Source: Oscillospiraceae bacterium
GTDB lineage: Bacteria > Bacillota > Clostridia > Oscillospirales > Oscillospiraceae
NCBI GenBank assembly: GCA_017427645.1
Contig: JAFRSI010000141.1
Span: 6,395-70,394 of the forward strand
Reading direction: 5' to 3'
DNA: 64,000 bases
The position numbers and the translations under genes are program-made. Of the stretch, positions 50,313 through 61,824 are shown piece by piece (positions within the stretch are counted from its first letter, which is position 1; the number at the start of each line of letters is the position of its first letter). Below the pieces are notes generated by a model, which did no database searches, was not told where the DNA came from, and was given only the letters and a program-made list of their open reading frames with translations.

Positions 50313-51710
50313 TCATACCGTTTTGATGAAATAGAAAAAGATCTCGTCCTGGCCGCTGCGCCGCATGCAGGAGGACAGCATCCGGAAGGACGCCTGATTC
50401 TCCTTATAGCACTTTGCCACCACCCGGTCCAGCCCCAGGCGGTACAGGGCCCACTCCGCCGCCGCGGCAAAGGCCTCGGTGCCGTAACCGTGGCCGGCGT
50501 ATGCCGGCGCGATCCGGCAGCCCAGCTCCGCACCGCCCCGCCAGTCCAGATTGTAGAGCACCGCCTCGCCGATCAGCCGCCCCTCCAGGCGGACCGCGAA
50601 ATTGACAGCCAGCCGGTCGTCAAAATCGCGGCGGGCCACCTCCAGGAAGTAGTCCTCCGTCCATTCCCCCTGCAGATCCTCCCGGTAGTCGTAGCCCCAC
50701 CAGCGGTTGCGCTCATCATCCAGGCACAGGGCGTTGTAGGCGGCCTTGTCGTCCTCCGTCAGTTCGTCCAGCACCAGGCGCTCCGTTTTCAGTGCGGGGA
50801 CGGCGTCCAGATCGTCCAACTCGCTGCCCACGGCAAAGTGGATCTTGCTGCCCAGCTCCGCCGGCAGATACTGGAGCTTGGAGGTGCGAAGCCCCTTGTC
50901 CTGGGCGTCGTCCTCCCGGTTGATCCACCGGCACTCCGCCCCGAAACGGGCGGCAAAGGCCTGCACCAGCGTGGGATAGGCGCCGGGGCAGGAGTAGAGG
51001 GCCTTCTCGGCGTGGATCACAAGGGTGTCCCCGCATTTCTCCGCCAGGCAGAGGGCCAGCAGGCGCCCCTCGTCCTCCAGACCGCCGGCGCAGAACCAGC
51101 CCCGGTCCAGCAGACGGAACATGCCCTTGGCGGTTTCCAGCTCCCACAGAGCCATGGGGCTGGTCTTCTGGAACTCCACCTCGTACCGGCGCCAGAACGC
51201 CTCGATCCGGTCGGCATCCGCCATCGTCAGCTCCGTGAAGCGGGCCTGGGGATACAGCTTCCTGAATTTGTTGATATGGTTTCGCTGGCCGCTGTAGCGT
51301 CGCCCGGCAAAAGCCGCCATGTCGGCGGCGCGGTAGAGATAGTCTCTCCATATCCGCTCGTTGGTGATCGTCACCCGGGAATACCGGCTGCACAGCCGCG
51401 CCGTCTGCTCCGCGGGCACCACCCAGATCTCGGGGTGCATCCCCTTTTTGGTGCAGTATTCCTCAATGGCGGTCAGCGCCGCGTCCACGTCTCCGTTTTC
51501 CCCCGGCACCGGCATGTCAAAGAAGATCCCCTCCTCCACCCGGTTCAGGACCACCAGACAGCCGGCCACCTCGGCAAAAGACGACTTCAGATGGTCGTCC
51601 CACATCACCTTGGTGCCCACGGCGTACTCGCACAGGCGATAATTGCAGTTTTCATAGTACGGCTTCAAACGGCCCGCGTTCTCCGCCGTGATCGGTTCAA
51701 ATGTCAGCAT
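50313..51710 (-). CDS. DUF2156 (aminoacyltransferase-like) domain fused to a RimJ/RimL-type GNAT
   Basis: DYLY..GRRYSGQRNHINKF, HAEKA, INREDD..GLRTSKLQY; C-terminal TERLVL..GHGYGTEA..ENQAS. Confidence 0.8.
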   Translation of the reverse strand: MLTFEPITAENAGRLKPYYENCNYRLCEYAVGTKVMWDDHLKSSFAEVAGCLVVLNRVEEGIFFDMPVPGENGDVDAALTAIEEYCTKKGMHPEIWVVPAEQTARLCSRYSRVTITNERIWRDYLYRAADMAAFAGRRYSGQRNHINKFRKLYPQARFTELTMADADRIEAFWRRYEVEFQKTSPMALWELETAKGMFRLLDRGWFCAGGLEDEGRLLALCLAEKCGDTLVIHAEKALYSCPGAYPTLVQAFAARFGAECRWINREDDAQDKGLRTSKLQYLPAELGSKIHFAVGSELDDLDAVPALKTERLVLDELTEDDKAAYNALCLDDERNRWWGYDYREDLQGEWTEDYFLEVARRDFDDRLAVNFAVRLEGRLIGEAVLYNLDWRGGAELGCRIAPAYAGHGYGTEAFAAAAEWALYRLGLDRVVAKCYKENQASFRMLSSCMRRSGQDEIFFYFIKTV

Positions 51711-51780
51711 AGGCGTTTTCCCTCTGAAATGAAAAGAGAAACGCCGGCCGGGCGGCCGGCATTTCTCTCGTTGCCATATT

Positions 51781-52155
51781 TCAATTGCAGTGCTTCTGCC
51801 AGAAGGCGCGGAGCTTTTCATAGGTCTCCTCGCTCAAGTGATGCTCGATCAGGCAAGCGTCGTGCTCCGCCGTCTCGGCGCTGACGCCCAGGGCGCAGAA
51901 CAGCTCCGTCAGCATATGGTGCTTGTCCAGGGTGCTTTGGGCAATGGCAAGGCCCTTCTCCGTCAGCACCAGCTGGCCGTCGGAGAGGCGCTCCAGGCAG
52001 CCGCTGTCCACCAGCTTGCCTACCGCCACGCTGACGCTGGGCTTGGAAAAACCCAGATGGGTCGCCACGTCGATGCTGCGGCAGCTCCCCTTGGCCTCCC
52101 GGATCATCAGGATCGCCTCCAGATAGTCCTCGCTGGAACGGTGACCGTCCGCCAT
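51781..52155 (-). CDS. DtxR/MntR-family metal-dependent regulator
   Basis: SEDYLEAI, SKPSVS, LGVSAETAEHDACLIEH. Confidence 0.9.
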   Translation of the reverse strand: MADGHRSSEDYLEAILMIREAKGSCRSIDVATHLGFSKPSVSVAVGKLVDSGCLERLSDGQLVLTEKGLAIAQSTLDKHHMLTELFCALGVSAETAEHDACLIEHHLSEETYEKLRAFWQKHCN

Positions 52156-52329: not shown

Positions 52330-55143
52330 TCACTGCATGGTCGGATACTCCGACTTTCCGGTGATCTTTTTCTTGAGGATCTTCATGCCGCGCTTGATGG
52401 CATAGGGCTTGACCACGTCCATCATCTCCTCAGCGGTGTGCATCTCGCTGGCCTCGGGGATATCGCGGGACAGGTGGATGGCGTCGAACTGGCAGCGGGT
52501 GGTACACAGGCCGCAGCCGATGCACTGGTTCAGGTCCACCGTGGTGGCGCCGCACTTGAGGCATCGGTTGGCCTCCACCTTCACCTGCTCCTCCGTCAGC
52601 GGCAGGCGCAGGTCCTCGAAGGTGGCCGCCGCCTCGCCGGGCTTCATGCCGGGCATCTGGCGCTTGGCATTGTCGTAGCTCTCCACCAGGATGTCGTCCC
52701 GATCCAGCTCGATGAAGTTCCTCAGGTCACGGCCCAGGGTCAGGGACTGACCGGGATGCACGAAGCGGTTGATGGACACGGCGGCCTCGCGGCCGGCGGC
52801 AATGGCGTCGATGACGAACTTCTGGCCGGTGCAGACGTCGCCGCCCACGAAGATGTCCGGCTCCGCCGTCTGGAGCGTGACCGGGTCGGCCTTGACGGTG
52901 CCGTTGCGGTTGAACTCCACCCGGGTGCCCTCCAGCAGCTTGCCCAGATCGGGCTTCTGGCCGATGCAGTAGAGCACGGTGGTGCAGGCGGCCTCGGCGG
53001 TATCGCCGTCGTCGAACTTCGGGTCGAAGCGGCCCTCGGCATTCTTGACGGACAGGCACTTGCGGAAGCGGATCCCGGTGCACCTGCCGTCCGCCGTCAG
53101 GATCTCCGTCTGGCCCCAGCCGGCGTGGATGGCGATGCCGTCCGCCTCCACCTCGGCCCGGTCGTCGGGCCCCATGGGCATCTCGTCGTAGCTCTCCAGG
53201 CAGTAGAGGTCCACCTTGGCGGCCCCTGCCCGGACGGCGGTCCGGGCGATGTCCGCGGCGATATTTCCGCCGCCGATCACCACCACGCTGCCGCTGAGCT
53301 TCTTCTCCGGGTGCTGGGTGATCTCACGGGAGAAGGTGATGCCGGGGATCACGCCCTGGGCGTCGTCGCCGGGGATCCCCAGCCTGCCGCCGCTCTGCAG
53401 GCCGGCAGCCAGGAAAAACGCCTTGTAGCCCTGGGCGCGCAGCTGATCCAGGGTCACGTCCCTGCCCACGTCGACGCCGCAGCGGAACTCCACGCCCATC
53501 CGGCGGATGATGTCGATCTCGCCCTCGATGACCTTCTTCTCCAGGCGGAAGTTGGGGATGCCGTTCATCATCATGCCGCCGGGGCGCTGCTCCCGGTCAA
53601 ACACCGTGACGGGGTAGCCCTCCTGCCGCAGATAGTAGGCGGCGCTCAGGCCGGCGGGGCCGGCGCCGATGACGGCGATCGGGAAATCGTCCCACTGCTT
53701 GCCGTCCATGTTCTCGCAGACGGGAACGTAGTCGGCGGGGTGCTGCAGCTCCCACTGGGCCAGGAACTTCTTGATCTCGTCGATTGCCACGGGCGCGTCG
53801 ATGGTGCCGCGGGTGCAGCGGTCCTCGCAGCGGCGGTTGCAGATGGCGCCGCAGACGGCCGGGAAGGGGTTGTCCTGCCGGATCAGGCGGATCGCCTCGT
53901 CGTAGCGGCCCTCGGCGGCCATGCGGATATAGCCCTGTACCGCCAGATGGGCGGGACAGGCGGTTTTGCACGGAGACGTGCCCGTATCGTAGCAGTTGAT
54001 CTTGTTGTGATCCCGGTAGTCCGGGTCCCAGCGATCCTCGCCCCACACGTTGTCGTCCGGCAGATCGTGCATGGGGTACATCACCTTGGAGCCGTCCGCC
54101 CGGCAGAGCTTCTGGCCCAGCTTGGCGGCGCCGGAGGGACAGACCTCCACGCATTTGCCGCAGGCCACGCACTTGGTGGCGTCCACGTGGGCGCGGTAGG
54201 CGGAGCGGGACATGTTGGGCGTGTTGAACAGCTGGGAGGTCCGCAGGCCGTAGCAGCTGCCGGGAGAGCAGTTGCAGATTCCCACGATGCGGTCCGGGCC
54301 GTCCAGGTTGGTGATCTGGTGGACGTAGCCCTTGCGCTCGGCCCGCTCAATGATCTCCATGGCCTCCTCGCGGGTGATGTAGTGGGCGTCCTTGCCGGAC
54401 TCCACCAGAAACTCGGCGATATCGCCCACGCCGATGCACATGTAGCCCTCGATATCGCCCACACCCTCGCCGCGGATGCGCTGGGCCTTGCGGCAGGCGC
54501 AGACCATGGTGCAGAACTTGTCGTTCTTCTGCAGCCAGTGGCTCAGATGCTCCACGCTGACCGACTGGGAGGCTCCGTCGATGGCCTGCTCCACGGGGAT
54601 CACGTGCATGCCGATGCCGGCGCCCCCGGGAGGCACCAGCTTGGCAGCCAGCTCCAGGGGCTCCTGGGGTGCCAGGTTGAACATGGTGGCCACCTCGGGA
54701 TGCTCGTCGGCCAGGGTGGGATGCTCCACCATGTATTCGCCGGAGCCCACCACCCACTTGGGGATCCAGTACTGGATGTGCTGATCCGGGTTGTCCCGGT
54801 TCTGCTCCAGGATACCGATCCACAGCAGGTGGTCGATGACCTTCTGCGCCTCCTCCACGCTCATCTGATTGCGCTCCGCCAGCTCCGGGGTGGTGAGCCC
54901 GAAACGGCGCTTCCTGAAGCTGAGCATGAAGCGGACTTCATCCTTGGTCAGCAGCTGGTCCAGGATCCAGAAATCCATGTGGTTTTCCTTCATGCCGCCG
55001 GGCAGCTTGCGGGGAATGTTGTCCGTGATCATGCGGGCCAGCTTCATCACCAGCTTTTTCTTTTCCGGATCGCTGCAGCGGTGATCCGTCACGGGATAGT
55101 CCCGCTGGTTCACGTGTATTCTGGGATTGACTTCCTTTACCAT
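52330..55143 (-). CDS. Multi-Fe-S, FAD/NAD(P)-binding oxidoreductase (GltD-like core with ferredoxin domains)
   Basis: CxCR..C..CNC..C; CVACGKCVEVCP; CKTACP..CGAICNRRCEDRC; GAGPAG; GGGNIAAD; C-terminal CLKC..CIGCGLCTTRC. Confidence 0.88.
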   Translation of the reverse strand: MVKEVNPRIHVNQRDYPVTDHRCSDPEKKKLVMKLARMITDNIPRKLPGGMKENHMDFWILDQLLTKDEVRFMLSFRKRRFGLTTPELAERNQMSVEEAQKVIDHLLWIGILEQNRDNPDQHIQYWIPKWVVGSGEYMVEHPTLADEHPEVATMFNLAPQEPLELAAKLVPPGGAGIGMHVIPVEQAIDGASQSVSVEHLSHWLQKNDKFCTMVCACRKAQRIRGEGVGDIEGYMCIGVGDIAEFLVESGKDAHYITREEAMEIIERAERKGYVHQITNLDGPDRIVGICNCSPGSCYGLRTSQLFNTPNMSRSAYRAHVDATKCVACGKCVEVCPSGAAKLGQKLCRADGSKVMYPMHDLPDDNVWGEDRWDPDYRDHNKINCYDTGTSPCKTACPAHLAVQGYIRMAAEGRYDEAIRLIRQDNPFPAVCGAICNRRCEDRCTRGTIDAPVAIDEIKKFLAQWELQHPADYVPVCENMDGKQWDDFPIAVIGAGPAGLSAAYYLRQEGYPVTVFDREQRPGGMMMNGIPNFRLEKKVIEGEIDIIRRMGVEFRCGVDVGRDVTLDQLRAQGYKAFFLAAGLQSGGRLGIPGDDAQGVIPGITFSREITQHPEKKLSGSVVVIGGGNIAADIARTAVRAGAAKVDLYCLESYDEMPMGPDDRAEVEADGIAIHAGWGQTEILTADGRCTGIRFRKCLSVKNAEGRFDPKFDDGDTAEAACTTVLYCIGQKPDLGKLLEGTRVEFNRNGTVKADPVTLQTAEPDIFVGGDVCTGQKFVIDAIAAGREAAVSINRFVHPGQSLTLGRDLRNFIELDRDDILVESYDNAKRQMPGMKPGEAAATFEDLRLPLTEEQVKVEANRCLKCGATTVDLNQCIGCGLCTTRCQFDAIHLSRDIPEASEMHTAEEMMDVVKPYAIKRGMKILKKKITGKSEYPTMQ

Positions 55144-55178: not shown

Positions 55179-56363
55179 TCACATGATGGGGATCTTGATC
55201 CTGACGTCGCTGGTGGGATAGGCGGCGCAGGCGTGGACGTAGCCGAAGTCGCGGTCCGCGCCCCGGCGGCCGTCGTTCTCCGGGCAGATATAGACGCTGC
55301 CGGAGAGGACCTTGGTGCGGCAGAAGCCGCATTCGCCGCTGCGGCAGCCGGTTTCGATGCGGATGCCGGCCCGCTCCAGGGCCACCACCAGGCTCTCCGT
55401 GGCCTTGGCGGGGATCACGTCCTCGCGGAGACCGCGGACAACGGTGAGCTGATAGGTCCGATCCCGGCACTCCATGGGATAGCCGGGGAAGGTGGTGATA
55501 TCCTTGGCCTGGCCGAACACCTCGAAGCGCACGCGGCGCTTGGGAATATCCAGCTTGGCCAGCTCCCCGTGGAGGAAGCGGTACATCACCTGGGGGCCGC
55601 AGATAAAGTAGGTGGTGTCCGGCGCGGAATACTTCCGGATCAGCTCCGCTGTCAGGAAGCCCCTTTCGCCCTGCCAGTCCGGCTCGTCGCCGGAGAGGAC
55701 GTGGACCACGCGGACGTGCTCGCCCTCCAGGGCGGCCAGCTCCTCCTTCAGCGTGATGTCGTCGGAGGACACGGAGCCGTAGAGGATGGTCAGATCCATG
55801 TCCAGCGTGCCGTGGGCTACCTCCCGGGCCATGGAGGCGAAGGGCGTGATGCCCACGCCGCCGGCCAGGGCCACCACGTGCTTTGCGTCGCGCAGGGGCT
55901 CGTAGTAGAACTGGCCGCAGCCGATCAAGCCGCGGAAGGTGTCGCCCACCTTCACGTTGTCGTTGATGTGGTCGCAGATAAAGCCGTCGCCCTTGGAGCG
56001 GCGGACCGTGATCTCCACAAAGCCCTTCTCCTGCCGGGCCTGCCAGGGCGCCGAGGAGATGGAGTAGGGTCGGGAGATCAGGCTCTGGCCAATGGGGAAG
56101 TCCAGCACCATGAACTGACCGGCGTAGAAGGGGGGCAGCTTTCCGCCGCCGACCTTTTCAAAGCGGACGGTCTTGGCGGTCCTGGAGGCGTCGCGGATCT
56201 CCGTCACCACCAGGTCCAGCTTGCCGGGATGCCACTCTCTGGCTACGTCGGCGATGGGGTCCTCCCGGACCGGCGCGGGAGAAGCGGCTGCAAACGCGTG
56301 GAGACGCGCCTTGGTGACGCGGGAGGCGCCTCCTACGTCCTTCAAAAAGCCGTTTACTTTCAT
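55179..56363 (-). CDS. FNR-type FAD/NAD-binding reductase with C-terminal 2Fe-2S ferredoxin
   Basis: RPYSISS, AGGVGITPF, ICGP, FEVF, CRSGECGFC..C; 4-bp overlap with upstream gene. Confidence 0.88.
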   Translation of the reverse strand: MKVNGFLKDVGGASRVTKARLHAFAAASPAPVREDPIADVAREWHPGKLDLVVTEIRDASRTAKTVRFEKVGGGKLPPFYAGQFMVLDFPIGQSLISRPYSISSAPWQARQEKGFVEITVRRSKGDGFICDHINDNVKVGDTFRGLIGCGQFYYEPLRDAKHVVALAGGVGITPFASMAREVAHGTLDMDLTILYGSVSSDDITLKEELAALEGEHVRVVHVLSGDEPDWQGERGFLTAELIRKYSAPDTTYFICGPQVMYRFLHGELAKLDIPKRRVRFEVFGQAKDITTFPGYPMECRDRTYQLTVVRGLREDVIPAKATESLVVALERAGIRIETGCRSGECGFCRTKVLSGSVYICPENDGRRGADRDFGYVHACAAYPTSDVRIKIPIM

Positions 56364-57889
56364 TTCGCCGCCTCCTTTGCCATGGTATCCAGCACATTTT
56401 TCGCCGCCTTGCGGCCGTTGACCACCGCCGGGCCCATACCGTCGCCGCTGATCTGGTGGGCGCCGGAGAACTCCAGATGGCCGATGAACTTCTCCTCCTC
56501 TTCCGTCTGCAGACGGGCAACGATGTGGTCCTCCATGGTGTGGGCATAGCCGTAGATGCAGCCGTTCCACATGCCGGTATAGCGGGCCACGGTCATGGGC
56601 GTCTCGATCACGATCTCCAGTATGTGATCCAGCAGATTCACGCCGAAGTAGGCGCTCATATCGTCGATGAGCTGCTTGGCCACCTGATGCTTCACGCGGT
56701 CATACTCGTCGGCGGTAACGGTCTTCCAGCCGTCCACGCGCGGCAGAACGGTGATGGAGAAGGAGCAGGTCCCCGCGGGGGTGGCGTCGGGATTGCCGTA
56801 GTTGTGGCAGATACAGGTGAGATAGCTGTACGGACCCAGGCCCTTCAGCTCATCGTAAATCCTGTCGGTATCCATCGTGGTGCCGTGGAAGATGCTGTAA
56901 TCCTTGATGTTCAGCTCCTCGGCGCTCTTGTCCAGGATCAGGATGACAGAGAATGCCGTCAGACTGATGCGGCGGCCGTTGACCATCTTGATGGCCCCGG
57001 CGGGCACCGCCTCAGCCGGCTCGATCATGGAGGTGTAGACCTTGTTGGGGTAGGCCGAGCAGATCACGTAGTCGGCGTAGATCTCGTCGCCCCGGGCGGT
57101 GCGGACGCCGTAAGCCTTGCCGTCCTTCACCAGGATCTTGTCCACGTGCTGCCGGTACTCGATCTGTACGCCCATCTCCTCGGCCTTTTCCGCCATCTTC
57201 AGGCTCATCTCATGGCTGAACTTCCGGGGGATATAGGAGCCGTTGCCGATATACTCGCCCATCAGCACGGCGTAGATGGTGAAGGGCAGATCGTTGAAGC
57301 CGCTGCCCACGTAGATCCAGTAGGGGGCCAGCAGATCCAGGGCCTTCTGCGGCAGGTCGAAGGTGTCCAGCACCTCTTTGGTGCTGTAACCGGCGGTCTT
57401 GACAAAGGCCGGGTGCTTGAGCAGCATCTGGGGCTTGCTCAGGTGGTTGACGGACAGATAGTTGACGCTGTCATACACGGTGGCGCACAGGTCCATCAGA
57501 CGCTTGACCTTCTCGTACGTGCCGGGCACGGCGGCGTCGATCTCGCGGGAGAAAGTCTCCATGCCCGGGTGCAGCGTCACCTCCAGGCCGGGGAGACTGG
57601 CATGGTACGCCTCCGGTACCCGGAGCCAGTCGATGTCGATGCCCAGCTGGTCGAAAAATACGCCCACCTTCTGCCGGTTGTCCTTGGCGCCGATATACAT
57701 CATTTCGTGGAGGGCCGCTTCGATCTCGATGCCGCCGCGCACGAAAGAGGTGGCCACGCCGCCGGGCAGATTGTGACGCTCCAGCACCAGCACGTCCTTG
57801 CCCTTGTCCGCCAGCTGCAGCGCCGCCGAAAGGCCCGCCAGCGCGCCGCCCACCACGATGACGTCATAGTGGTCTTTGTAAAATTTCAT
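56360..57889 (-). CDS. CrtI/phytoene desaturase-retinol saturase family FAD oxidoreductase
   Basis: VGGALAGL..VLERHNLPGG..SFVRGG..EAALH; ETPMTVARYT..NGCIYG; GDGM..VNGRKAA. Confidence 0.85.
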   Translation of the reverse strand: MKFYKDHYDVIVVGGALAGLSAALQLADKGKDVLVLERHNLPGGVATSFVRGGIEIEAALHEMMYIGAKDNRQKVGVFFDQLGIDIDWLRVPEAYHASLPGLEVTLHPGMETFSREIDAAVPGTYEKVKRLMDLCATVYDSVNYLSVNHLSKPQMLLKHPAFVKTAGYSTKEVLDTFDLPQKALDLLAPYWIYVGSGFNDLPFTIYAVLMGEYIGNGSYIPRKFSHEMSLKMAEKAEEMGVQIEYRQHVDKILVKDGKAYGVRTARGDEIYADYVICSAYPNKVYTSMIEPAEAVPAGAIKMVNGRRISLTAFSVILILDKSAEELNIKDYSIFHGTTMDTDRIYDELKGLGPYSYLTCICHNYGNPDATPAGTCSFSITVLPRVDGWKTVTADEYDRVKHQVAKQLIDDMSAYFGVNLLDHILEIVIETPMTVARYTGMWNGCIYGYAHTMEDHIVARLQTEEEEKFIGHLEFSGAHQISGDGMGPAVVNGRKAAKNVLDTMAKEAAK

Positions 57890-57911
57890 AGGCAATTATC
57901 CTTTCCGAAAA

Positions 57912-57936
57912 ACGGGGGCGGTTGTCCCGCCCCCGT
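57912..57936 (-). terminator. Hairpin with U-tract between the isomerase and the CrtI-like gene
   Basis: Minus strand acgggggcgg-gacaa-ccgcccccg-ttttt. Confidence 0.6.
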
Positions 57937-57947
57937 CTCTGCAAGTC

Positions 57948-59336
57948 TTAGAAGAAGCGATCCACCAGCTCGCGGGAGTACTCGGCCGTCTCGTCCATGT
58001 CGCCGAAGGACATGATCTCGCCGGCATAATAGGTGTCGTACTTGCCCTGCATGGCCTCCACCTTGTCATACCAGCCGGCGGCATAGTCGTCGGAGAAGAC
58101 GTGGGGGAAGTAATACACGGACCACTCGTTGATGACCTCTCTGGCGGGGTTCTTCATGATCTTCAGATCGTCCTGCACCATCTGGCGGCACTCCTCGTAG
58201 GGGATCTCCCTGGAGTTCTTGTGCTTGCGCAGGGCGTAGGTGGTGATGACCTGGTCGATCTGATCCTTCCAGCGGCGATAGTAGACCATCAGGTGGCCCA
58301 GCTTCTCGGGCACCATGTTGTCAAACACGTAGTAGGAGATCTCGGGGTGATCCTCGGGTCTGGTTAGCACGGCCTGGACGTCATAGCGCTCGTAGTCGAT
58401 CTTGGAGAACAGCGCCTTTTCGTCCTCGCGGGCGTCGAAGTAGTCCACCATGCCCTTCTGGCCGTCGGCCCGGGTGCCGGGGATATACAGCGGCGCGGTG
58501 ACGATGATCTTGTCATACTCCTCCACCTGGCCGTTGACGGTGACGTAGACCTTGCCGTCCCGGCGCTCCACCTTCTCGATGGTGCTGCCCAGGCGGGCGG
58601 GATTCTTCAGATGGGCGTTGAGCTGCTCCCAGATGTACTGGGTGCCCTCCTTCCAGGTCCAGAGATTGACCTTCACGAAGTTCATGCAGGTCTGATAGTC
58701 CAGATACTTCACCACGTAGCCGGCGGGGATCTCGTCGAAGTAGCCGTAGCCAAAAGAGGTAAAGGGCCCGATCCAGATCTTCTGCACCAGGGGCACGCCG
58801 TTCATCTCGCAGAACTGCTTGAAGGGCATGGCCAGATCCTTCAGGTTGGGGTTGACGCCCTCCACCTTCTCGCGGCCGGGGGTGACGGCATAGCCCTCGT
58901 AGCGGCCTTCGGCAACGCCGCGGTGGCCGTTGATGTCGTAGCCCTTGTACTTGGTCTCCAGCAGCTCGCCGAACTTCTTGAGCTGGCTCTTCATCTTCAG
59001 CATCCAGGGATTCTTGATGATGTTGCCGATGGTGCGGGCAAAGGGCTCAATGACCTCGCCCTTGGCGTTCTTGTAATTGCGGTTCAGCTTGGGACCGTCG
59101 TGGGTGATGCCGCAGAAATCCTCCACGTCCTTGACGGCGTAGTAGCTGGGCACGCCCATGATGGCGCCCATCTCATAGCGCCGCCCGTTGTAATGGGGGG
59201 ACCAGCACTTGCCGCCCACGCGATCCTGGCGCTCCAGGATGGTGTAGTTCTCATAGCCCTTCTGCTCCAGATACATACCGGCGGAAAGACCGGCGGGGCC
59301 GCCGCCCACGATGCAGATGCGAATGTTCTTGTCCAT
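57948..59336 (-). CDS. Polyunsaturated fatty acid isomerase (PAI-type linoleate 10,12-isomerase) homologue
   Basis: Blocks shared with C. acnes PAI as recalled: GPAGL.AGMYLEQ, YTILER, VGGKC.SP, GRRYEMGAIMGVPSY, DGPKL.R, PFT.FGYG.FD, LGH.MVYY.RW, EECRQMV.DD, YYFPHV, GWY.KVE.MQG, YAGEIMSFG; RBS ggagg. Confidence 0.88.
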   Translation of the reverse strand: MDKNIRICIVGGGPAGLSAGMYLEQKGYENYTILERQDRVGGKCWSPHYNGRRYEMGAIMGVPSYYAVKDVEDFCGITHDGPKLNRNYKNAKGEVIEPFARTIGNIIKNPWMLKMKSQLKKFGELLETKYKGYDINGHRGVAEGRYEGYAVTPGREKVEGVNPNLKDLAMPFKQFCEMNGVPLVQKIWIGPFTSFGYGYFDEIPAGYVVKYLDYQTCMNFVKVNLWTWKEGTQYIWEQLNAHLKNPARLGSTIEKVERRDGKVYVTVNGQVEEYDKIIVTAPLYIPGTRADGQKGMVDYFDAREDEKALFSKIDYERYDVQAVLTRPEDHPEISYYVFDNMVPEKLGHLMVYYRRWKDQIDQVITTYALRKHKNSREIPYEECRQMVQDDLKIMKNPAREVINEWSVYYFPHVFSDDYAAGWYDKVEAMQGKYDTYYAGEIMSFGDMDETAEYSRELVDRFF

Positions 59337-59393
59337 GTTCAGCCTCCATATCATTATTCCGTATTCGGTATTGAAACCGCAATCGTGTAGTAT

Positions 59394-59422
59394 ATTATAT
59401 CGCCGTTTTCGTTTAAATTCAA
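59394..59422 (-). promoter_or_regulatory. Promoter of the isomerase operon
   Basis: TTGAAT-17-TATAAT. Confidence 0.7.
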
Positions 59423-59522: not shown

Positions 59523-60863
59523 ATGCGATTTGACGGCTTCCGGCATCTGCTGGCCCACTGGGCGGAGCGTCAGCCGGACGCACCGGCGCTGCGCTTCGGC
59601 GCCCAAAGCTGCTCTTTCGGGGAGCTTCTGCACCGGGTCGAGCAGCGCTCGGCTCAGCTGCGGGCAGAGGGGAATACCTGCATGGGGATCCTCTCCGACG
59701 GCAGCCTGGACTGCGTGATCGAGATCTTTGCGGCCAACGCCGCCGGACTGCAGGCGGTGCTGCTGGACGAGCAGCTCCCCGAGGACGTGCTGCGGGGGCT
59801 GATCCGGTATGCCGACATCGACCGACTGTGGGGCGACGAGGACCTGGTGCAGGAATTGACGCCCGCCCTGACCGGCGGCACGGCCGACGGCGCGGGAAAG
59901 CTCCTGTTCTTCACCTCCGGCACCACGGAGCAGTCCAAGGCCGTGGTCCTGACGGATCACAGCCTGTGCCAGAGCGCCTGGAACGGCTCCCAGATGCTGC
60001 CCCTCTCCCGGGAGGACACGCTGCTTTGCCTGCTGCCTCTGGGCCACGTATTCGGCTTCGTGTGCGGCCTTCTGTGGGGTCTCTCCAACGGGGCCTGCGT
60101 CGCCCTGGGCCGCGGCGTGCGCCACTATTTTGACGACTGCGCCTTCTACTCCCCCACGGCGGTTTCCGTGGTGCCCCTGCTGCTGGAGCACCTTTTGCGC
60201 GCCGATGCCCTGGGGCCCACTCTGCGGACGGTCCTGGTAGGCGCCGGCGACTGCCCCGCCCCCCTGCTGGCCGCCGCTGCGGCCCGGGGCCTGCGGATCA
60301 GCTTCGGCTACGGCCTCACGGAGACCAGCTCCGGTGTGGCCATCAGCACGGGCGGCGATCCCTTTGCCATGGATATCTGCCCCGACGACACCGTCACCCT
60401 GGCCCCGGACGGCGAGATCCTGATTGAAGCGCCCACCTGCATGATGCAGGGCTACTACAAGCGCCCGGACGCCACCGCTGCCGTGCTGCAGGACGGCGTT
60501 CTGCACACGGGGGATCTGGGCCGGTTCGACCAGGAGGGGCGGCTCCATATCCTGGGCCGCAAGAAGGACGTCCTGGTGCTGCCGGACGGCACGAAGCTCT
60601 ATCTCCCCGAATATGAAAGCGAAATCGCGGAGGCCCTGGGGATCCGCGACCTGGCCGTCACCCTCCGCAGCGGACGGCCCATCCTCCTGCTGCACGGCGA
60701 GATCAGCCCCGCCGAGGCAGTGCAAAAGCTGCGCCCCCTCATGGCGCGGCGCCCCCGCGGACAGCAGCTGACGGACGTCCTGGTGACGAATCAGCCTCTG
60801 CCCCGTACGGCTACCGGAAAGATCAAACGCTGGGAACTCCAGCAGAAAGTGAGTGTGCTATGA
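59523..60863 (+). CDS. AMP-binding (ANL) long-chain acyl ligase
   Basis: FTSGTT..SK, GYGLTET, HTGDLG, GRKKD, LPRTATGKIKR; RBS ggaggtg. Confidence 0.9.
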   Translation: MRFDGFRHLLAHWAERQPDAPALRFGAQSCSFGELLHRVEQRSAQLRAEGNTCMGILSDGSLDCVIEIFAANAAGLQAVLLDEQLPEDVLRGLIRYADIDRLWGDEDLVQELTPALTGGTADGAGKLLFFTSGTTEQSKAVVLTDHSLCQSAWNGSQMLPLSREDTLLCLLPLGHVFGFVCGLLWGLSNGACVALGRGVRHYFDDCAFYSPTAVSVVPLLLEHLLRADALGPTLRTVLVGAGDCPAPLLAAAAARGLRISFGYGLTETSSGVAISTGGDPFAMDICPDDTVTLAPDGEILIEAPTCMMQGYYKRPDATAAVLQDGVLHTGDLGRFDQEGRLHILGRKKDVLVLPDGTKLYLPEYESEIAEALGIRDLAVTLRSGRPILLLHGEISPAEAVQKLRPLMARRPRGQQLTDVLVTNQPLPRTATGKIKRWELQQKVSVL

Positions 60864-61108
60864 AAAGAGAAGAGATCCTGGAAAAGACCCGCAAGATTAT
60901 CTACGACTGCTTCCCCGAGTTGGCGGACGCGGAGCTGCGGGAGGACACGGTGATCAATACGGATACCGGTATCGACTCCATGGGCTTCGTGCTCATCATC
61001 TGCAAGCTGGAGGCCCTGTTCAACGTGCGGATCCCGGAGCGGCAGTGGAAGAAGCTCTCCACCCTGGGCGACGTGGTGGACGCCATCTCCAACCGTCTGT
61101 CCAAATGA
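60860..61108 (+). CDS. Acyl carrier protein
   Basis: 82 aa; GIDSM phosphopantetheine site; ATGA overlap with the ligase. Confidence 0.9.
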   Translation: MKREEILEKTRKIIYDCFPELADAELREDTVINTDTGIDSMGFVLIICKLEALFNVRIPERQWKKLSTLGDVVDAISNRLSK

Positions 61109-61824
61109 GTATTTATCAGAAGGAGCTGCGCCTGCGCAGCTCGGACGTGGATCTCCACCGGCGATTGCGCCTGTCCACCCTGTTCGCCCTGCTCCAGGAG
61201 GCCGCCATCGCCCACACGGAGCAGTTGGGGATGGGCCGGGCCATGACCCTGGACCGCGGCGCCCTGTGGATCGTAACGCTGCAGTCGGCGCAGATCCGGC
61301 GCATGCCGGAATATGACGAGGAGATCGTGCTCCGCTCCTGGCCGGGACAGACCATGCACGTTCTGTTTCCCCGCTACTGCGCCGTTGATACGGCCTGCGG
61401 CGAGCCGCTGATCCGCGCCAGCGCCCTGTGGACGCTGATCGACGGCGACACCCGGAAGCTGGTTTTCCCGGAGCGGCTGGGGGTGGAGATCCAGGGCGTC
61501 TCCCGCCCGGAGGACGAGATCCCCCTGCCCTCTGCCCCGCGGCCCATCCCGACCACGCAGCACCGGGAGTTCACCGTGCCCTACAGCTACGTGGATCTCA
61601 ACGGCCACATGAACAACACCCGTTACTTCGACCTGGCGGAGGACTGCATCAGCGCCGCAGCGGAGGGACGGCCTCTGCGCGCCGTCAGCACGGAATTCAA
61701 ACAGGAGGCCCGCCTGGGCGAGACCCTCTCCCTGGCGTGGGGCCGGGACGGCGAGCGCTGGTATCTGGCCGGCGCCGCAGAGAAGAACGTCTTCCGCATG
61801 AGTCTCACCTACGGCGAGGGCTGA
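61105..61824 (+). CDS. Acyl-ACP thioesterase (FatA/FatB-like double hot-dog)
   Basis: SDVD..LQEAA.AH, DLNGHMNNTRY; ATGA overlap with ACP. Confidence 0.9.
   Translation: MSIYQKELRLRSSDVDLHRRLRLSTLFALLQEAAIAHTEQLGMGRAMTLDRGALWIVTLQSAQIRRMPEYDEEIVLRSWPGQTMHVLFPRYCAVDTACGEPLIRASALWTLIDGDTRKLVFPERLGVEIQGVSRPEDEIPLPSAPRPIPTTQHREFTVPYSYVDLNGHMNNTRYFDLAEDCISAAAEGRPLRAVSTEFKQEARLGETLSLAWGRDGERWYLAGAAEKNVFRMSLTYGEG

What the first reader, a model, noticed from the sequence alone, without database searches (positions are those of the whole stretch)
57948..59336. PAI-type linoleate isomerase in a Clostridia genome, key residues intact plus two insertions
The protein aligns end to end by eye with the recalled C. 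acnes PAI sequence. It keeps the equivalents of Met62 (GAIMG), the carboxylate-binding Arg88 (DGPKLNR), Phe168 (PFTSFGYG), the gate Phe193 (CMNF) and the GEIMSFG motif. It has an extra segment of about 20 aa after DINGH (GVAEGRYEGYAVTPGREKVEG) and about 10 aa after TAPL (IPGTRADGQKG), which could be docking surfaces for ACP or the reductase. Codon use is host-like and strongly GC3-biased, suggesting long residence and high expression.
Basis: partly seen in the sequence, partly recalled or inferred. Interest (0 to 1): 0.82.

Follow-up and report, generated by a model that had tools for sequence, protein, structure and literature searches.

The report
Rumen fat isomerase with carrier partner

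Summary
Confirmed. The 462-aa ORF matches C. acnes PAI (454 bits, next best 40; model TM 0.98, 1.4 A). The Met62/Arg88/Phe168/Phe193 equivalents are kept in 199-200 of 200 relatives. PAI homologues in rumen Lachnospiraceae/Oscillospiraceae MAGs are already in print (PMC10019597). I found no paper on the cluster: CrtI-like flavoprotein (77 of 77 loci), flavin/2Fe-2S reductase (68 of 68), and a divergent ligase-ACP-thioesterase operon (ACP 64 of 68). This scan reported the cluster before on other DNA (e1-5183000, e1-1446251). New here: (1) isomerase plus cluster ACP passed complex prediction (0.71, best control 0.00), with ACP Ser40 at the gate helix; (2) that ACP type occurs only with this isomerase clade in the genomes searched; (3) the host genus lacks fatty-acid synthesis genes; (4) a sister clade occurs in cultured Tractidigestivibacter (Olsenella) scatoligenes, a species linked to the trans-10 shift. 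The insertions are mostly not the dock: only the tip of insertion 1 touches ACP, and insertion 2 is dispensable. 'Long residence' is not supported (2 of 24 congeners). Activity, product isomer and reductase role are untested.

The parts
57948..59336 (-). PAI-type FAD fatty-acid double-bond isomerase, 462 aa (P0001)
59157..59159 (-). Met60 (= PAI Met62)
   Evidence: (200 of 200)
59079..59081 (-). Arg86 (= PAI Arg88; carboxylate/gate role recalled)
   Evidence: (200 of 200)
58752..58754 (-). Phe195 (= PAI Phe168)
   Evidence: (199 of 200, one gap)
58677..58679 (-). Phe220 (= PAI Phe193; gate role recalled)
   Evidence: (199 of 200, one gap)
58857..58922 (-). Insertion 1, residues 139-160, predicted beta-hairpin; shared by all gut-anaerobe clade A and B rows; tip 152-153 touches ACP in the model
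58458..58487 (-). Insertion 2, residues 284-293, variable loop limited to a subclade; not listed in the ACP interface
58998..59036 (-).
58665..58697 (-). Helix 214-224 carrying the Phe220 gate; part of the predicted ACP dock
58944..58991 (-). Helix 116-131; part of the predicted ACP dock
57900..57941 (-). Strong stem-loop between isomerase and CrtI-like gene (z -4.7); possible attenuator or RNA-stabilising hairpin
   Evidence: hairpin plus T tail in 26 of 76 loci
56360..57889 (-). CrtI/CRTISO-family FAD oxidoreductase, 509 aa; candidate conjugated-diene reductase
   Evidence: below all curated cut-offs; 4rep Z 36.5, rmsd 2.8, 472 aligned
55179..56363 (-). FAD/NAD-binding reductase with C-terminal 2Fe-2S domain, 394 aa; overlaps the CrtI-like stop; candidate electron donor
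52330..55143 (-). GltD-like 4Fe-4S flavoprotein, 937 aa; looser partner, also next to clade B isomerases
59371..59422 (.). Back-to-back sigma-70-like promoter matches in the divergent spacer
   Evidence: 3 of the 4 matches in 10.7 kb lie here; consensus match only
59523..60863 (+). Acyl-adenylate ligase (AMP-binding), 446 aa; candidate fatty acid:ACP ligase
60860..61108 (+). Dedicated acyl carrier protein, 82 aa, invariant Asp39-Ser40, non-acidic helix II; predicted to dock on the isomerase
61105..61824 (+). Acyl-ACP thioesterase, 239 aa
   Evidence: 2own, E 2.6e-15

Best explanation
The gene encodes an active PAI-type isomerase. [quoted passage not shown] It is the entry step of a three-module dietary-fat processing cluster. 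(a) The ligase loads fatty acid on a dedicated ACP, which docks with its Ser40 at the isomerase's gate helix, so acyl chains pass between carrier and isomerase as substrate or product. (b) The CrtI-like flavoprotein, fed electrons by the flavin/2Fe-2S reductase, most likely reduces the conjugated diene to a trans-10 monoene. (c) The thioesterase releases free acid. The host cannot make its own fatty acids, so the cluster would detoxify dietary PUFA, keep it away from the housekeeping ACP/PlsX pool and supply usable chains. Shown: homology, residues, gene linkage, co-occurrence, no FabF/FabZ/FabD found. Predicted: ACP docking. Inferred: activity (about 0.9), trans-10 product (about 0.7), real ACP contact (about 0.6), reductase step (about 0.5).
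For: PAI match of 454 vs 40 bits. AF2 model pLDDT 95.8; vs 2b9w TM 0.98 and rmsd 1.4, next hit TM 0.74-0.79. Key residues in 199-200 of 200. CrtI-like gene adjacent in 77 of 77 loci, reductase in 68 of 68, ACP 64, ligase 65, thioesterase 64 of 68 (top 80 of 388 loci, related genomes). In 301 Lachnospiraceae genomes all 5 with a clade-A isomerase have a close CrtI-like gene, against 1 of the other 296. The dedicated ACP is in 4 of 151 genomes, the same four clade-A handles, one of them on another contig (three of the four were in the query alignment). Complex score 0.71, best of 3 controls 0.00; mark reached by 116 of 157 solved and 2 of 215 mismatched pairs; runs agree in at least 90% of contacts, partner pLDDT at least 83; interface includes ACP 38-42 and isomerase 214-224. 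Interface positions are enriched for residues fixed in the ACP-linked clade and absent in the ACP-less clade, 9 of 21 vs 68 of 441. In 5 Coriobacteriales clade-A loci the isomerase heads a co-oriented ligase(-ACP-thioesterase) run, and no CrtI-like gene was found in 5 of 5 clade-A genomes checked. FabF not found in 25 of 25 genus genomes, FabZ and FabD in 0 of 5, while PlsX, housekeeping ACP and a PPTase are present in 5 of 5.
Against: No assay. Arg86 and Phe220 are intact, and in PAI these are said (recalled) to select free acids, which argues against an acyl-ACP substrate. One of the three complex runs scored only 0.32; my own row-matched alignments were used; carrier helix II docking can come from memory of other ACP complexes. 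Four of the nine clade-A-fixed interface residues (P63, S64, G123, M218) are shared with the C. acnes-type sequence P0124, so the patch is partly the ancestral substrate mouth. CrtI-like and reductase genes also travel as a pair without an isomerase nearby (7 of 8 loci), and the top family hit is carotenoid cis-trans isomerase, so their substrate is open. Family-level Oscillospiraceae abundance tended to fall as trans-10 rose (4.56 to 1.69, P 0.074; PMC9853040). FabF loss is a genus trait, not specific to carriers; 5 of 9 Lachnospiraceae isomerase genomes keep FabF.
Confidence: 0.5

Rival explanations
1. Plain PAI acting on free fatty acid with no physical link to ACP. The ligase-ACP-thioesterase operon handles uptake or editing of exogenous fatty acids, and the genes are merely co-regulated.
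For: Arg86/Phe220 invariant. Clade B and G053 keep the same catalytic residues with no ACP neighbour. Isomerase pairwise identity tracks ACP only weakly (Spearman 0.5) while ligase/ACP/thioesterase track each other at 0.81. The docking patch is partly shared with the C. acnes-type sequence.
Against: Complex passed with controls at 0.00 and Ser40 at the gate helix. The dedicated ACP was found only with clade A. Co-oriented operon in Coriobacteriales.
Confidence: 0.27
2. Same chemistry, different outcome: the enzyme gives another conjugated isomer (for example cis-9,trans-11) or prefers linolenate, or the CrtI-like protein is a cis-trans isomerase or desaturase. The cluster would then not be a trans-10 biohydrogenation route.
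For: About half of the residues differ from PAI, with clade-invariant changes such as F90 to Y88 and N410 to D446. The family is common in ordinary rumen MAGs. Carotenoid isomerase is the best NCBIfam hit of the CrtI-like protein. Oscillospiraceae trend down in trans-10 shift.
Against: All four named channel residues are identical and the fold superposes at 1.4 A. A PAI-bearing Lachnospiraceae MAG correlated with milk t10,c12 CLA (PMC10019597). A dedicated stoichiometric electron donor fits a reductase better (inference).
Confidence: 0.18
3. It is an amine oxidase or protoporphyrinogen oxidase, as database labels say.
For: JGI labels 'protoporphyrinogen oxidase' and Pfam Amino_oxidase.
Against: Those families match only the FAD motif (40 bits or less) and score far under NCBIfam cut-offs; structural matches at about 15% identity and TM about 0.6-0.7 vs 48% and 0.98; lipid-handling neighbours.
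Confidence: 0.03

Closest known systems
[quoted passage not shown]
   Same: End-to-end fold (TM 0.98 of target, rmsd 1.4), 48% identity by structure alignment, FAD motif, Met62/Arg88/Phe168/Phe193 equivalents, GEIMSFG.
   Different: 38 residues longer (22-aa hairpin, 10-aa loop, about 7 residues at 101-113); sits in a cluster with a dedicated ACP predicted to dock at the gate helix and with a candidate reductase pair. PAI is described as a soluble monomer converting free linoleate (PMC2885616).
PAI homologues in rumen MAGs (PMC10019597)
   Same: PAI hits (40% or more identity) in 7 MAGs including Lachnospiraceae and Oscillospiraceae; one correlates with milk t10,c12 CLA.
   Different: In the passages and Discussion I read there is no residue, structure or gene-neighbour analysis and no assay; supplements not read.
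Butyrivibrio fibrisolvens linoleate isomerase and CLA reductase (trans-11 route)
   Same: Same logic: isomerise to a conjugated diene, then reduce it; CLA-R reduces conjugated acids (PMC2654759).
   Different: [quoted passage not shown] I had no CLA-R sequence, so any relation to the CrtI-like gene is untested.
CrtI/CRTISO/retinol saturase flavoprotein family (for the neighbour 56360-57889)
   Same: Fold of gamma-carotene desaturase 4REP (Z 36.5, rmsd 2.8, 472 aligned); the family includes a polyene double-bond reductase (retinol saturase, recalled).
   Different: 18-19% identity; below every curated cut-off; followed by a flavin/2Fe-2S reductase in 68 of 68 close and 7 of 8 other loci.
Lactobacillus/Bifidobacterium MCRA hydratase CLA pathway
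   Same: Also converts linoleate to CLA and monoenes.
   Different: Different enzymes (hydratase, dehydrogenase, decarboxylase, enone reductase); no MCRA Pfam hit here.

Membership tests
PAI-type PUFA double-bond isomerase | End-to-end sequence and fold homology to PAI, well above amine oxidases | tested here: met
PAI-type PUFA double-bond isomerase | N-terminal FAD-binding GxGxxG and GG motifs | tested here: met
   FAD binding itself not measured
PAI-type PUFA double-bond isomerase | Met62, Arg88, Phe168, Phe193 equivalents (roles recalled; PNAS 2006 and JBC 2009 papers not held) | tested here: met
PAI-type PUFA double-bond isomerase | Converts linoleate to trans-10,cis-12 CLA | not testable with these tools
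   needs an assay
PAI-type PUFA double-bond isomerase | Accepts only free fatty acids (recalled) | tested here: inconclusive
   Arg86/Phe220 kept, but ACP is predicted to dock at the gate
PAI-type PUFA double-bond isomerase | Soluble monomer | not tested
   the single complex job went to ACP
Flavin amine oxidase / protoporphyrinogen oxidase | Full-length match above family cut-off | tested here: not met
   NCBIfam scores of 42 bits or less against cut-offs of 98-640 for the oxidase/desaturase families; the broad Pfam Amino_oxidase model is passed, and PAI itself is reported as homologous to that family
MCRA / oleate hydratase type linoleate isomerase | MCRA domain | tested here: not met
   no such Pfam hit
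Complete biohydrogenation cluster (isomerase plus conjugated-diene reductase) | Conserved linkage of isomerase with a flavin reductase and an electron donor | tested here: met
Complete biohydrogenation cluster (isomerase plus conjugated-diene reductase) | The CrtI-like protein reduces CLA | not testable with these tools
   fold gives family only
Acyl carrier protein (cluster ACP) | Invariant Asp-Ser attachment site and a PPTase in the genome | tested here: met
   D39-S40 in 40 of 40; PF01648 in 5 of 5 genomes

The most novel reading that the evidence does not exclude
Uncultured rumen fatty-acid auxotrophs run a carrier-based biohydrogenation line: dietary linoleate is loaded on a dedicated ACP, isomerised while tethered by a PAI variant that docks the ACP, reduced by a new CrtI-family conjugated-diene reductase with its own flavin/2Fe-2S donor, and released as trans-10 18:1. 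This would be the first gene set for a whole rumen trans-10 route and the first ACP-dependent PAI. The sister clade in Atopobiaceae (including T. scatoligenes) and in human gut bacteria would supply trans-10,cis-12 CLA.
Probability: 0.3. Interest if true: 0.92.

Novelty: new variant of a known kind. Interest (0 to 1): 0.74.

Why it matters
Which rumen bacteria make trans-10 intermediates, the cause of diet-induced milk fat depression, is unresolved: of 28 cultured strains only C. acnes did, and it was judged unlikely to be the main source (PMC7339423). This family is encoded at 388 matching stretches in species-level genomes, comes with candidate reductase and carrier genes, and has cultured carriers. 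The question becomes directly testable with six soluble proteins or a few available strains. An ACP-docking PAI would also be new enzymology, and useful for making CLA.

Tried and rejected
(1) Insertions as the ACP or reductase dock: mostly rejected. (2) My idea that insertion 1 docks the GltD-like Fe-S flavoprotein: in Lachnospiraceae all 8 insertion-bearing isomerase genomes have it and the insertion-less G053 does not (background 54 of 301), but none of 7 Coriobacteriales clade-A genomes with the insertion matched, so rejected as a rule. (3) Expression: 14 runs listed, 4 laid. All are contigs; two runs cover the flanking genes too and may hold DNA; relatives' isomerase contigs are present in RNA libraries of three studies. 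This does not show transcription or rank genes, so it is not used as evidence. (4) Linking the CrtI-like gene to Butyrivibrio CLA-R: no sequence or primer in the passages read. (5) The PAI structure and mechanism papers are not held, and residue-name searches found nothing relevant. (6) No conserved operator stood out upstream of 80 loci by 8-mer counts, only -10-like words. (7) ESM Atlas gave only phytoene desaturase/prolycopene isomerase-like clusters for the CrtI-like protein. (8) The tree is the quick search only; long branches and a partly deleted PAI stand-in (P0124) make deep nodes unsure, and no clade test was run. (9) Fisher tests treat related genomes or sites as independent and overstate. 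(10) Searches of earlier findings by place and by words returned nothing.

Full report
Observation. The ORF at 57948-59336 (-) encodes 462 residues. Against the PDB it matches C. acnes PAI (2b9w) at 454.6 bits, E 3.6e-135, and the next match is 40 bits over the FAD motif. An AlphaFold model (pLDDT 95.8) superposes on 2b9w with TM 0.98 (target-normalised), rmsd 1.4 A and 48% identity; the next structure is TM 0.74-0.79 and amine oxidases are about 0.6-0.7. Counting on the alignment gives M60=Met62, R86=Arg88, F195=Phe168, F220=Phe193. Among 200 close relatives (80 loci plus 120 proteins) M60 and R86 are kept in 200, F195 and F220 in 199 (one gap). The roles of these residues are recalled, since the two primary papers are not held. 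The insertions are real: 22 aa at 139-160 (predicted beta-hairpin) and 10 aa at 284-293, plus about 7 extra residues at 101-113. GC3s is 0.897 (73rd percentile) and CAI is at the 96th percentile of a crude set of 1072 ORFs with three reference genes.

Distribution. 970 proteins pass E 1e-20 and 388 stretches in species-level genomes encode a relative, of which I saw the best 80. Of these, 66 carry ruminant-type labels in their titles; labelled families are Oscillospiraceae 23, Lachnospiraceae 15, Anaerovoracaceae 4, Erysipelotrichaceae 4, Eubacteriaceae 1, one Actinomycetota row, and 32 without a family. It is patchy: 2 of 24 same-genus genomes, 9 of 301 Lachnospiraceae, 15 of 251 Coriobacteriales. 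None of the window's flanking genes (GNAT, MntR, SpoIIE-like) appear in the 80 loci. This fits a mobile or often lost cluster and does not support long residence. A quick tree of 65 rows puts the gut-anaerobe proteins, all with insertion 1, as sister to a C. acnes-type sequence (P0124, which has an internal deletion). They split into clade A (the window's) and clade B (about 50% identical). Clade B includes abundant human-gut proteins and cultured Tractidigestivibacter scatoligenes, Parafannyhessea umbonata, Olsenella sp. and Ndongobacter massiliensis. A 451-aa form occurs in Grylomicrobium aquisgranensis and Lactimicrobium massiliense; its place between the two clades is weakly supported and its neighbours were not seen.

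The cluster. Downstream on the same strand lie a CrtI-family flavoprotein, a flavin/NAD/2Fe-2S reductase and a GltD-like Fe-S flavoprotein; divergently lie an acyl-adenylate ligase, an ACP and an acyl-ACP thioesterase. Counting only loci with enough flank, the CrtI-like gene is adjacent in 77 of 77, the reductase in 68 of 68, and ligase, ACP and thioesterase in 65, 64 and 64 of 68. These loci were chosen for closeness and are not independent. In an even draw of 301 Lachnospiraceae genomes, all 5 with a clade-A isomerase have a close CrtI-like gene, against 1 of the other 296. The dedicated ACP was found in 4 of 151 genomes, the same clade-A handles, once on a different contig; three of the four were in the query alignment. 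Four clade-B genomes gave only weak ACP hits (E 2e-11 or worse vs 5e-27 for a clade-A genome that was in the alignment). Three modules appear: CrtI-like and reductase identities co-vary (Spearman 0.79), ligase/ACP/thioesterase co-vary (0.81), and the isomerase tracks either only at 0.3-0.5. Of 18 loci whose isomerase is at least 88% identical to the window's, 16 carry a CrtI-like gene only 52-58% identical. The CrtI-like/reductase pair also occurs without a nearby isomerase in 7 of 8 other loci. Clade B in human-gut contigs is followed by the GltD-like gene in 78 of 80 and has no CrtI, reductase or ACP hit in the DNA held. Five Coriobacteriales clade-A loci have the isomerase co-oriented with the ligase (then ACP and thioesterase where the DNA reaches), and no CrtI-like gene was found in 5 of 5 clade-A genomes checked. 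A strong hairpin (z -4.7) separates the isomerase from the CrtI-like gene.

The docking claim. It passed: score 0.71 (runs 0.83, 0.32, 0.71), best of three controls 0.00; the mark was reached by 116 of 157 solved complexes and 2 of 215 mismatched pairs, counts that hold only roughly with my own alignments; runs agree in at least 90% of contacts and partner pLDDT is at least 83. The interface uses isomerase 63-64, 116-131, 152-153 and 214-224, and ACP 15-22, 38-52 and 60, so the attachment serine (S40) lies at the helix carrying the F220 gate. Only the tip of insertion 1 takes part, and insertion 2 is not listed. As a check, 9 of 21 interface positions are fixed in 72 ACP-linked proteins and nearly absent from 69 clade-B proteins, against 68 of 441 elsewhere; clade B puts bulkier or charged residues at G123 and M218. 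Against this, P63, S64, G123 and M218 are shared with the C. acnes-type sequence, so the patch is partly the ancestral substrate mouth, and ACP interface residues are barely more conserved than the rest (0.69 vs 0.65). The cluster ACP is unusual: 15 acidic and 13 basic residues, against 24 and 6 for the housekeeping ACP. The model supports binding; it does not show it. Insertion 2 is absent in four Erysipelotrichaceae loci that keep ACP and CrtI neighbours. Insertion 1 is in clade B without ACP, and in Coriobacteriales clade A without the GltD-like gene, so its role stays open.

Host physiology. FabF was not found in 25 of 25 genomes of the genus, including 96-100% complete ones; FabZ and FabD were found in 0 of 5 genomes, four of them from the genus. 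PlsX, a housekeeping ACP and a PPTase are present in 5 of 5. The host is therefore a predicted fatty-acid auxotroph. In Lachnospiraceae, 8 of 11 genomes with the CrtI-like family lack FabF against 45 of 290 others, but only 4 of 9 isomerase genomes do, and 4 of 6 further Coriobacteriales carriers keep it. Auxotrophy is enriched, not required.

How it most likely works. PAI chemistry on linoleate or linolenate gives a conjugated diene, most likely trans-10,cis-12. The ligase, ACP and thioesterase form a load-and-release cycle that is futile unless something acts on the tethered chain; the predicted dock and the CrtI-less Coriobacteriales operon point to the isomerase as one such enzyme. The CrtI-like protein (fold of gamma-carotene desaturase, Z 36.5, rmsd 2.8, 472 aligned) with its electron donor is the candidate reductase to trans-10 18:1. 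Rivals: a plain free-acid PAI with co-regulated neighbours (intact Arg/Phe gate); a different product isomer, or a cis-trans isomerase in place of a reductase (best NCBIfam hit is carotenoid isomerase, far under cut-off); an amine oxidase (rejected).

What is known. PMC10019597 (passages and Discussion read, supplements not) already reports PAI hits in 7 rumen MAGs, including Lachnospiraceae and Oscillospiraceae, one correlated with milk t10,c12 CLA. PMC7339423 (abstract, strain table, first part of one Discussion section) found only C. acnes among 28 strains made trans-10 products, judged it unlikely to be the main source, tested no Atopobiaceae or Erysipelotrichaceae, and cites an old isolate called R. 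albus that made trans-10 18:1. PMC9853040 (passages) links an Olsenella scatoligenes OTU to the trans-10 shift, with its role unknown; that species (now Tractidigestivibacter, renaming recalled) encodes a clade-B protein with all four residues. The same paper shows Oscillospiraceae tending down with the shift (P 0.074), which counts against this lineage as the driver. Two 2026 reviews (PMC13365329, PMC13464031; passages) list PAI only from C. acnes and call uncultured taxa unvalidated. Other papers were seen as passages only (PMC2885616, PMC6249431, PMC6037716, PMC4478896, PMC4786556, PMC12254105, PMC2654759). Ten full-text searches found no description of the cluster or of an ACP-linked PAI; most subscription journals, including dairy science ones, are not searched. 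Two earlier reports of this scan reached the same cluster reading on other genomes; I had formed mine before seeing them, and they are not independent support.

Verdict. A real PAI-family member (activity untested) in a new setting: a new variant of a known kind. The isomerase alone is not surprising. The conserved carrier-plus-reductase cluster, the predicted ACP dock and the cultured carriers make a long-standing rumen question testable. Interest 0.74.

Noticed in passing
P0506, P0518, P0534, P0400; L084-L163: A sister clade (about 50% identity, all four key residues) occurs in cultured Atopobiaceae and abundant human-gut bacteria (one 90% cluster has 3019 members), followed by a GltD-like Fe-S flavoprotein and a small HypA-like gene (label by eye): a candidate human-gut source of t10,c12 CLA.
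   Followed up: partly
P0126, P0331, P0127, P0133: Full-length homologues with insertion 1 but changed channel residues (for example in Atopobium sp. oral taxon 416: Met, Arg, Phe, Phe positions read Phe, Tyr, Arg, Leu in the alignment); possibly new specificity or decay.
   Followed up: no
L225-L232: A CrtI-like gene followed by a flavin/2Fe-2S reductase is a recurring two-gene unit without an isomerase nearby (7 of 8 loci), enriched in genomes lacking FabF; an uncharacterised two-component enzyme.
   Followed up: partly
G000 and 24 same-genus genomes: The whole genus lacks FabF (and FabZ, FabD where checked) but keeps PlsX and a housekeeping ACP: predicted fatty-acid auxotrophy, also seen in 9 of 16 other genomes of the order.
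   Followed up: partly
window 52330-55143; G000:C24:3170-5896: The 937-aa GltD-like Fe-S flavoprotein has an unannotated cysteine-rich N-terminal region, a 55% paralogue in the same genome, and homologues in 54 of 301 Lachnospiraceae and 82 of 251 Coriobacteriales, in several loci beside hypA/hypB-like genes (labels by eye).
   Followed up: partly
L179 (G053:C7:531-1793): A Lachnospiraceae PAI homologue of 420 aa with no insertions and none of the cluster neighbours, the closest in layout to C. acnes PAI.
   Followed up: partly
P0135, P0151: Distant homologues of 860-890 aa, about twice the normal length; possibly tandem or fused PAI-like domains.
   Followed up: no
window 50313-51821 (-): Fusion of a phosphatidylglycerol lysyltransferase C-terminal-like domain with a GNAT acetyltransferase, just outside the cluster.
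   Followed up: no
L018: A Coriobacteriales-labelled 4.3-kb contig carries an isomerase 88% identical to the window's, nested among Oscillospiraceae copies: recent cross-phylum transfer or misbinning.
   Followed up: partly
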